Shown one piece after another: positions 1-410 of a DNA stretch of 4,516 bases (positions are counted from its first letter, which is position 1; each line of letters starts with the position of its first letter). The notes below the pieces were generated by a model. That model searched no databases, was not told where the DNA came from, and was given only the letters and a program-made list of their open reading frames with translations. The translations under genes and the position numbers were made by a program. Origin of the DNA: a virus (lineage: Duplodnaviria; Heunggongvirae; Uroviricota; Caudoviricetes); the IMG/VR virus record IMGVR_UViG_2648501669_000013; one strand, written 5' to 3'.

Positions 1-410
1 AAAATCCTCAGCGCATTAACTCCACGGATTTTTAGTTCTCCGGTCATGGTGTCACCATCACGCTGAACGGCATTTTTTGCCTTATCCACCGTGGGTTTTA
101 ATCCGAGGTTTTCAACAGCCTCATCCTTATCTTCCACATCCGAAAGGTTATTTTTTATCAGCAATGCCTCTTCGTTAATCGCACCACCCACCAGTAATAA
201 TATGGCTTTATATAGCTGATCGTGTTCTTCTTTATTCAGTTCTATCCCGGCCTTCTCAATGACACCACAGATTTCCTCCTGAATGGCATCCCACATGGCA
301 CTGTTCAGCCAGGTGGCAAGACGCCCCGTCCGAATATTTCCGTCAGTGAATCCGTTCTTGCCCGGACCAAACTTATCTTTTACCGCTGTCAGCGTATCAA
401 TCCTGTGCAT
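1..410 (-). CDS. Tail fibre protein, N-terminal portion (5' partial; gene continues past window coordinate 1)
   Basis: My reverse-complement translation from ATG 408..410 is open to the window edge: MKMHRIDTLTAVKDKFGPGKNGFTDGNIRTGRLATWLNSAMWDAIQEEICGVIEKAGIELNKEEHDQLYKAILLLVGGAINEEALLIKNNLSDVEDKDEAVENLGLKPTVDKAKNAVQRDGDTMTGELKIRGVNALRI... The 'ENLGL...NAVQ.DGDTMTGEL' stretch resembles motifs I recall from phage tail-fibre N-terminal regions (for example P2 gpH has NAVQKNGDTLSGGL). GAGG at 417..420 lies 6 nt upstream of the ATG. Position directly after the baseplate genes fits Mu/P2 order. Alternative start ATG 414..416 is possible but has no spacer to the GAGG. Confidence 0.7.
   Translation of the reverse strand, partial: MHRIDTLTAVKDKFGPGKNGFTDGNIRTGRLATWLNSAMWDAIQEEICGVIEKAGIELNKEEHDQLYKAILLLVGGAINEEALLIKNNLSDVEDKDEAVENLGLKPTVDKAKNAVQRDGDTMTGELKIRGVNALRI

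What the first reader, a model, noticed from the sequence alone, without database searches (positions are those of the whole stretch)
1..410. Unlisted tail-fibre gene start at the window edge; host-range module lies just outside
The ORF track misses a minus-strand gene that starts at 408..410 and runs off the window. Its N-terminus has a tail-fibre-like motif (ENLGL...NAVQRDGDTMTGEL). In Mu-like elements the receptor-binding C-terminus, a tail-fibre assembly chaperone and sometimes an invertible segment with a Gin/Pin-type invertase follow, and that is where diversification and host-range novelty would be.
Basis: partly seen in the sequence, partly recalled or inferred. Interest (0 to 1): 0.4.

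Follow-up and report, generated by a model that had tools for sequence, protein, structure and literature searches.

The report
Start of phiP27-type prophage tail-fibre gene
The window edge holds the first 136 codons of an already annotated tail-fibre gene of a phiP27-like E. coli prophage; close relatives have no invertase after this gene, so the finding is real but ordinary.

Summary
A minus-strand ORF starts at ATG 408-410, overlaps the stop of the gp48/YmfQ-like gene by 14 nt and runs off coordinate 1 (136 codons). It is 99.3% identical to the N-terminus of L54, the annotated tail fibre of Stx2e phage phiP27. It matches PHROG 6859 (tail fibre) at E=8.5e-85 and phage Mu fibre S/gp49 (PDB 5yvq/9ki1) at E=3e-13.

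The window is a complete 4516-nt contig (JRQF01000162.1), so it cannot be extended in its own record. In about 50 relatives the fibre is 331-402 aa. It is followed by a Caudo_TAP chaperone, then a second fibre (phage_tail_N) and a DUF4376 gene, all on the same strand, then the prophage end. None of about 25 relatives with enough downstream DNA has an invertase.

The ENLGL motif lies where the Gin/Pin crossover site sits in Mu S and e14 StfP. Only the constant-side half-site survives (8.7 bits against 27-29 for real sites), so it is a relic.

The exchangeable host-range cassette begins inside the window, at coordinate 156 (residue 86). From there it is 93-99% identical in DNA to P2-like prophage fibres.

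The gene is already known and of low interest.

The parts
1..410 (-). 5' part (136 codons, start ATG 408-410) of the tail-fibre gene, orthologue of phiP27 L54. It is cut by the end of the contig.
   Evidence: contig identity
157..410 (-). Residues 1-85: baseplate-docking adaptor specific to fibres that follow a gp48/YmfQ-type wedge gene. Homologous to Mu S 34-97 and 60% identical to e14 StfP 1-65.
   Evidence: Docking of the Mu gp49 N-terminus on gp48: PMC11915804. Found at 90 places in 66 complete E. coli genomes.
1..156 (-). Residues 86-136: first part of the horizontally exchanged shaft, receptor-binding and chaperone cassette. The same cassette is joined to P2 gpH-type N-termini in P2-like prophages.
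   Evidence: junction at L54 nt 255 = window 156; up to 98.9% DNA identity over 1257 nt. Found at 189 places in 129 genomes.
93..118 (-). Relic of a Gin/Pin-family crossover site. The coding strand CTGTTGAAAACCTCGGATTAAAACCC encodes (A)VENLGLKP. The constant-side half-site and the central TC are kept; the variable-side half is degenerate.
397..987 (-). gp48/YmfQ-like baseplate wedge protein (196 aa), the inferred docking partner of the fibre N-terminus.
   Evidence: Pfam PF10076 E=2.2e-25; PHROG 203; PMC11915804
987..2068 (-). Baseplate J/gp47-like gene, split into two ORFs by a 1-nt deletion in a C-run at 1480-1484.
2061..2474 (-). gp46-like baseplate wedge protein.
   Evidence: PF07409 E=1.4e-34
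2480..3013 (-). gp45-like baseplate spike / assembly protein V.
   Evidence: PF06890 E=1.6e-26
3013..4026 (-). gp44-like baseplate hub, 337 aa, with a 14-aa in-frame deletion relative to phiP27.
4023..4516 (-). C-terminal part of the gp43-like 'DNA circularization'/tube-initiator gene, cut by the other contig end.
   Evidence: PHROG 17109 E=3.1e-69

Best explanation
Window 1-410 (minus strand) is the first 136 codons of the tail-fibre gene of a phiP27-like prophage of E. coli. This prophage type has an integrase, a cos site and a contractile tail with a Mu-type baseplate. The gene is the orthologue of phiP27 L54 and a shortened homologue of phage Mu fibre S (gp49).

Residues 1-85 are inferred to be the adaptor by which the trimeric fibre docks on the gp48/YmfQ-like wedge protein, which is encoded immediately upstream and overlaps the fibre start by 14 nt.

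From residue 86 (window coordinate 156) the gene enters a mobile cassette made of shaft, receptor-binding tip and Caudo_TAP chaperone. P2-like prophages carry the same cassette behind a different N-terminus. This cassette is where host range is set and where the variants differ.

The ENLGL motif is the peptide encoded by the ancestral Gin/Pin crossover site. Only the constant-side half-site remains and relatives have no invertase, so the fibre is fixed and not switchable.

The contig probably ends here because the cassette is repeated in the genome. That last step is inferred.
For: Identity:
- 98.8% DNA identity to phiP27 over the whole window.
- The partial protein is 99.3% identical to L54, annotated 'putative tail fiber protein'.
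- PHROG 6859 E=8.5e-85.

Mu homology:
- Window residues 30-97 match Mu S 34-97, and residues 80-129 match Mu S 147-197, E=3.2e-13.
- Full-length L54 matches Mu S to its C-terminus, E=1.7e-22.

Synteny: Pfam families Gp44-like, Mu_Gp45, GP46, Baseplate_J and Mu_Gp48 lie upstream in Mu order.

Docking: cryo-EM of Mu shows the gp49 N-terminus anchored on gp48 loop 133-155 (PMC11915804).

Downstream content in relatives:
- Fibre of 331-402 aa, Caudo_TAP, a phage_tail_N fibre, DUF4376, then attR and host genes.
- N-terminus conserved, C-terminus mosaic.
- L015, which shares the window's rare 42-nt hub deletion, reads on to at least 208 aa and is identical to the phiP27-type variant.

Cassette:
- The P2-like fibres all share the junction at L54 nt 255 (nt 262 in four of the loci compared) and 93-99% DNA identity through the chaperone.
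- Coordinates 1-156 occur at twice as many genomic places as 157-410.

Relic site: the window site aligns with Mu gixL, e14 pixL and the annotated 'Mu-like inversion crossover site' of phage 186. It scores 8.7 bits against 27-29 for the real sites.
Against: The rest of the gene is not in this record, so its length, its C-terminal variant and the presence of the chaperone in this particular genome are inferred from relatives.

Some relatives carry truncated copies of 79-221 aa, so this copy could also be broken.

The baseplate J gene in this contig is frameshifted. If that is real, this prophage copy cannot build a tail and the fibre gene is not functional in situ.

Docking on the gp48-like protein is inferred from Mu by homology and was not tested.

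The half-site scoring matrix was built from only five half-sites of Mu and e14, so the scores of the real sites are inflated by circularity.
Confidence: 0.88

Rival explanations
1. The gene is the constant part of an invertible Gin/Pin-type host-range switch. Just beyond the contig end would lie a G/P-like segment with an alternative fibre C-terminus, a chaperone in inverted orientation and a serine invertase. The contig would break because the segment is present in both orientations in the sequenced culture.
For: The ENLGL-coding DNA aligns with Mu gixL and e14 pixL and keeps the 10-nt core AAAACCTCGG and the central TC. The e14 fibre StfP has a homologous N-terminus and does carry such a switch with PinE (PMC12529663). 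One phiP27-type relative (L043) has a strong gix-like site and an S'-like fragment on the opposite strand after the chaperone. Contig L014 ends exactly after ENLGL.
Against: There is no invertase in about 25 phiP27-type loci with adequate downstream DNA, nor in the full phiP27 genome. No second high-scoring site occurs in those loci. The variable-side half-site of the window site scores -1.1 bits. The L043-type arrangement in a complete genome consists only of gene fragments with no invertase. This contig ends 92 nt beyond the site, not at it.
Confidence: 0.04
2. The fibre gene is a dead remnant in a defective prophage. The copy in this genome is truncated or non-functional and plays no role in host range.
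For: Baseplate J is split by a 1-nt deletion in this contig. The hub gene carries a 14-aa deletion. Truncated fibre genes (79, 93, 174 and 221 aa) and IS insertions occur in relatives.
Against: The 136 codons are intact and identical to those of apparently complete prophages. The frameshift lies in a homopolymer and may be a sequencing error; L014 and L015 of the same lineage have an intact 360-aa gene. This reading concerns the state of the gene and does not change what the gene is.
Confidence: 0.15
3. The ORF is a chance open frame at the contig edge and not a gene.
For: None beyond its absence from the ORF list, which is a rule of the tool.
Against: PHROG E=8.5e-85. 99.3% identity to an annotated fibre. 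Conserved start with a ribosome-binding sequence and overlap with the upstream gene. Homology to a solved Mu fibre.
Confidence: 0.005

Closest known systems
phiP27 L54 (CAC83572 / NP_543106), putative tail fibre of Stx2e-converting phage phiP27, and its RefSeq 'phage tail protein' orthologues in E. coli prophages
   Same: 135 of 136 residues are identical. The start codon, the overlap with the gp48-like gene and the upstream gene order are the same.
   Different: Only the first 136 of about 332 codons are present. This copy belongs to a sub-lineage with a 42-nt deletion in the hub gene and a frameshifted baseplate J gene.
Phage Mu tail fibre S (gp49; PDB 5yvq, 9ki1) with chaperone U and the G segment
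   Same: Homologous N-terminal adaptor, the NLGL...NAVQ..GDT..G hinge and, in the full-length orthologue, the C-terminal receptor-binding domain. It follows gp48 in the same gene order, and a Caudo_TAP-type chaperone follows it.
   Different: The fibre is about 170 aa shorter (332 against 504 aa). Relatives have no G segment, no gixR partner and no gin. The phage is not transposable.
e14 cryptic prophage StfP / P segment / PinE of E. coli K-12
   Same: The fibre follows YmfQ. Residues 1-65 are 60% identical. ENLGL sits at the equivalent position, encoded by the crossover site.
   Different: e14 has a complete pixL/pixR pair and pinE, and it inverts (PMC12529663). The window has only the constant-side half-site.
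Phage 186 gene K / P2 gpH-type tail fibres
   Same: Residues 79-130 are 51% identical to 186 K 247-299. The 186 record annotates a non-functional 'Mu-like inversion crossover site' at the same spot. E. coli P2-like prophages carry the same cassette at 93-99% DNA identity.
   Different: The N-terminal adaptor is of the P2 H type (MNGLILTTSG...), fitted to a different baseplate.

Membership tests
phiP27 L54-type tail fibre (PHROG 6859) | N-terminal sequence matches the family profile | tested here: met
   E=8.5e-85, residues 1-136 on profile positions 1-136 of 346; 99.3% identity to L54
phiP27 L54-type tail fibre (PHROG 6859) | Gene lies directly after the gp48/YmfQ-like wedge gene, on the same strand, with overlapping stop and start | tested here: met
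   Start at 408-410 inside the end of gene 397-987; same arrangement in phiP27 and 12 further loci
phiP27 L54-type tail fibre (PHROG 6859) | Full length of about 330-400 aa with a Mu S-like C-terminal receptor-binding domain | not testable with these tools
   The window is the whole contig. This holds in relatives, and L015 of the same lineage reads to at least 208 aa.
phiP27 L54-type tail fibre (PHROG 6859) | Followed by a Caudo_TAP tail-fibre assembly chaperone | not testable with these tools
   Outside the contig. Present in all relatives examined.
Phage Mu S (gp49) fibre family | Sequence homology to the Mu S N-terminal region | tested here: met
   phmmer against the PDB: 5yvq/9ki1 E=3.2e-13, two stretches; blastp 2e-10
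Phage Mu S (gp49) fibre family | N-terminus docks on the gp48 wedge protein | not testable with these tools
   Inferred from the Mu cryo-EM structure (PMC11915804) and from the gp48 homologue at 397-987.
Gin/Pin/Hin-type invertible tail-fibre switch | A 26-bp crossover site with two good inverted half-sites inside the fibre gene | tested here: not met
   Site at 93-118: left half 9.8 bits, right half -1.1, total 8.7, against 27-29 for gix and pix. The total lies within background (7-14).
Gin/Pin/Hin-type invertible tail-fibre switch | A partner site in inverted orientation downstream | tested here: not met
   No site of 15 bits or more in the phiP27-type relatives except a relic in L043.
Gin/Pin/Hin-type invertible tail-fibre switch | An adjacent serine invertase gene | tested here: not met
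   tblastn with Gin and PinE found hits only in the e14-like L090 and L091. There were none in about 25 phiP27-type loci with at least 2.5 kb of downstream DNA, and none in the phiP27 annotation. Not testable for the source genome itself.
Gin/Pin/Hin-type invertible tail-fibre switch | An alternative fibre C-terminus and chaperone on the opposite strand | tested here: not met
   In relatives the second fibre (phage_tail_N) and DUF4376 gene are on the same strand, and the fibre has its own N-terminus.

The most novel reading that the evidence does not exclude
The constant-side half-site kept at ENLGL (93-118) might still be used by Pin-family invertases acting in trans. E. coli carries PinE, PinQ and PinR, and PinQ and PinR are reported to invert e14 from other prophages. 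Such use could let the prophage capture or swap fibre cassettes between prophages in one genome, so that a 'fixed' phiP27-type fibre would still be part of a genome-wide recombinase-driven host-range exchange network.
Probability: 0.04. Interest if true: 0.5.

Novelty: already known. Interest (0 to 1): 0.1.

Why it matters
It matters little. The gene has been annotated as the tail fibre of phiP27 since that genome was deposited, and modular exchange of fibre cassettes and relic Mu-like crossover sites in fibre genes are long established; the phage 186 record already annotates one.

The useful outcomes are practical:
- The ORF track has a blind spot at contig edges.
- The window cannot be extended because it is a whole contig.
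- The host-range cassette boundary can be placed at coordinate 156.
- phiP27-type prophages carry two tandem fibre-chaperone pairs and no invertible switch.

Tried and rejected
- Pfam and NCBIfam gave no significant family for the 136 residues. The only Pfam hit, DUF6240 at 14.4 bits against a cut-off of 26.6, was rejected as noise.
- I looked for the window's own continuation. The look-up of encoding contigs showed that the window is the whole contig, and the two closest contigs, L014 and L015, also break inside the fibre gene.
- The exact 228-aa frameshift product occurs only in this contig, so it could not be used to find a longer sister contig.
- I tested whether the ENLGL site is a functional crossover site with a small half-site matrix. 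It was rejected as a full site.
- I scanned about 95 related loci for invertases and for strong sites. Only the e14-like loci and one relic (L043) turned up. A complete-genome example of the L043 type showed only fragments.
- I did not use the large protein-database searches or structure prediction, because homology to annotated and solved proteins was already decisive.

Full report
OBSERVATION

The minus strand of window 1-410 translates into 136 codons with no stop. The sequence starts MHRIDTLTAVKDKFGPGKNGFTDGN... and ends ...AVENLGLKPTVDKAKNAVQRDGDTMTGELKIRGVNALRI. The ATG at 408-410 follows a GAGGA-type ribosome-binding sequence and overlaps the last 14 nt of the upstream gene at 397-987. 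The mechanical ORF list omits this ORF only because ORFs that run off an end are never listed.

WHAT THE WINDOW IS

The whole window is 98.8% identical to the Stx2e-converting phage phiP27 and 99.4% identical to a prophage in E. coli STEC276.

All genes are on the minus strand and form a Mu-type baseplate module:
- C-terminal part of a gp43-like 'DNA circularization' gene (4023-4516)
- gp44-like hub (3013-4026)
- gp45-like spike (2480-3013)
- gp46-like wedge protein (2061-2474)
- baseplate J/gp47-like gene (987-2068, split)
- gp48/YmfQ-like wedge protein (397-987)

The phiP27 genome has an integrase, an excisionase, a cos site and terminase genes. The element is thus a phiP27-like prophage with a Mu-type tail, not a transposable Mu-like phage.

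An exact-protein look-up showed that the window is the complete 4516-nt contig JRQF01000162.1 of draft assembly GCA_000768125.1 (L016). It cannot be extended in its own record.

WHAT THE ORF IS

The 136 residues match PHROG 6859 'tail fiber protein' at E=8.5e-85, over positions 1-136 of both query and profile. They are 99.3% identical to phiP27 L54, annotated 'putative tail fiber protein'. Pfam and NCBIfam have no family for this region.

Against solved structures the best match is phage Mu 'Tail fiber protein S' (5yvq, 9ki1) at E=3.2e-13. Residues 30-97 align with Mu S 34-97 and residues 80-129 with Mu S 147-197. Full-length L54 aligns with Mu S to the C-terminal receptor-binding domain at E=1.7e-22. 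The gene is therefore a shortened homologue of Mu S, about 332 aa against 504 aa.

Cryo-EM of Mu shows the N-terminus of the trimeric gp49 fibre anchored on a docking loop (residues 133-155) of gp48 (PMC11915804). By homology, residues 1-85 here are the adaptor that docks on the gp48-like protein encoded just upstream. This step is inferred.

WHAT FOLLOWS IN RELATIVES

The same order follows the gp48-like gene in phiP27, in STEC276 and in ten other E. coli genomes:
- fibre of 332-387 aa
- Caudo_TAP chaperone of 176-182 aa
- second fibre with a phage_tail_N N-terminus, 490-771 aa
- DUF4376 protein of 187-207 aa
- prophage end and host genes

All of these are on the same strand.

A scan of IMG/VR gave 79 more loci. 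Intact fibres with this N-terminus are 331-402 aa, and a few are truncated to 79-221 aa. An alignment of 32 distinct sequences shows a nearly invariant N-terminus and mosaic, strongly variable distal parts. Contig L015 shares the window's rare 42-nt hub deletion and is 99.5% identical to the window. It reads on to at least 208 aa and is identical to the phiP27-type variant. That is the best proxy for the missing part of the gene.

NO INVERTASE

tblastn with Mu Gin and e14 PinE against all loci found an invertase fragment only in L090 and L091. These are e14-like and match only residues 1-65 at 62% identity. About 25 phiP27-type loci hold at least 2.5 kb beyond the fibre stop, and none has an invertase. 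The Pfam-annotated gene lists and the phiP27 annotation show none either.

THE ENLGL MOTIF

The phage 186 record annotates a 'Mu-like inversion crossover site' in fibre gene K exactly where the window protein aligns. In Mu, the 34-bp inverted repeats that bound the G segment include gixL, TTATCCAAAACCTCGGTTTACAGGAA, which encodes IQNLGLQE. In e14, pixL is CTCTCGAAAACCTTGGTTTGGGAGAA and encodes ALENLGLGE in StfP. The StfP N-terminus is 60% identical to the window protein. The published e14 inverted repeats overlap this site (PMC12529663).

The window has CTGTTGAAAACCTCGGATTAAAACCC at 93-118. The constant-side half and the central TC are well kept. The variable-side half is degenerate.

With a small matrix built from the Mu and e14 half-sites, the window site scores 8.7 bits (9.8 and -1.1). 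The real sites score 27-29 and the best background hits score 7-14. The matrix is small and was trained on the real sites, so it is a rough measure only. No partner site occurs in the phiP27-type relatives.

The one exception is L043. It has a strong gix-like site and an S'-like fragment on the opposite strand after the chaperone, next to an IS. A complete-genome example of that variant shows only gene fragments and no invertase.

WHERE THE HOST-RANGE CASSETTE STARTS

Many IMG/VR loci match only residues 86-136, at 96-100% identity. Their fibres have P2 gpH-type N-termini (MNGLILTTSG...) joined to this segment at about residue 159.

At the DNA level, phiP27 L54 from nt 255 through the end of the chaperone gene is 93-99% identical to these P2-like prophages, reaching 98.9% over 1257 nt in L084. 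The left junction is the same in every case. L54 nt 255 corresponds to window coordinate 156.

In complete E. coli genomes, coordinates 1-156 occur at 189 places in 129 genomes. Coordinates 157-410 occur at 90 places in 66 genomes. STEC276 has two copies of the first segment and one of the second.

So the exchangeable cassette begins inside the window. Its repetition within genomes is the likely reason why this contig, L014 and L015 all break inside the fibre gene. That reason is inferred.

VERDICT

An invertible segment and an invertase are not supported.

The gene is already annotated in phiP27 and in RefSeq prophages. Fibre mosaicism and relic crossover sites are established knowledge; on that point I rely on the phage 186 annotation and on my own recollection of the 1990s literature on P2, Mu and P1 fibres. 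Novelty is 'already known' and interest is low.

The most novel reading not excluded is that the retained half-site is still used in trans by Pin-family invertases. The P2-type and phiP27-type junction lies 38 nt upstream of the site rather than at it, which favours ordinary homologous recombination.

Noticed in passing
window 1480-1484 (within 987-2068, minus strand): The baseplate J/gp47-like gene is split into 228-aa and 179-aa (131-aa as called) ORFs by a 1-nt deletion in a C-run: C5 here against C6 in phiP27, STEC276, L014 and L015. The same length change is seen in the unrelated long contig L009, so it is either a recurrent homopolymer slip or a sequencing error. If real, this prophage copy cannot assemble a baseplate.
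   Followed up: partly
window about 3508-3519 (within gp44-like hub gene 3013-4026): A 42-nt in-frame deletion removes 14 aa (LVLGKPGTGKAATA) relative to phiP27 and nearly all relatives. It lies between two 12-nt direct repeats TCCCAGAACCAG, which points to replication slippage. The exact 337-aa product is on record in only three assemblies: this contig, L014 and L015.
   Followed up: partly
window 1-4516 (whole): The window is an entire draft-assembly contig (JRQF01000162.1, GCA_000768125.1). Both ends fall inside phage genes: the fibre at coordinate 1 and the gp43-like gene at 4516. The stretch 3508-4516 is 100% identical to phiP27 while 1-3524 is 98.5% identical, which suggests a mosaic or a repeat-bounded assembly fragment.
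   Followed up: partly
window 4023-4516: The listed 147-aa GTG-start ORF (4023-4466) is really the C-terminal part of a gp43-like 'DNA circularization'/tube-initiator gene of about 463 aa that starts beyond the window end. It is a second edge-truncated gene that the ORF track misrepresents.
   Followed up: yes
L001 332-2367 (phiP27 L56/L57) and the equivalent genes in L003-L013: phiP27-type prophages carry a second fibre gene in tandem. It has a phage_tail_N N-terminus and varies from 490 to 771 aa, some variants with Phage_fiber_2 repeats. A DUF4376 protein follows it, at the very end of the prophage. The result is two fibre-chaperone pairs on one strand in place of an invertible pair.
   Followed up: partly
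L043 5053-5430 and 5266-5291; L100 6862-6987: The 369-aa fibre variant of the phiP27-type family is followed by a strong gix-like site (TTCCTGTAAACCGAGGTTTTTGAGAA) and a fragment resembling the start of the Mu S' variable part on the opposite strand. An IS21-family element lies next to it in L043. This is a decayed invertible segment.
   Followed up: partly
L059-L061 (match 8001-8312): A diverged branch (71% identity over residues 1-108) switches immediately after NLGL to an e14 StfE-like C-terminus (...PVGAPIPWPSD...NIAFNYIVRLA). This looks like a frozen product of exchange at the crossover site.
   Followed up: no
L003 19131-20500: In the closest complete-genome relative (STEC276) the tail terminator gene of the prophage is interrupted by an IS150 copy. 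This shows that phiP27-like prophages are often defective.
   Followed up: no
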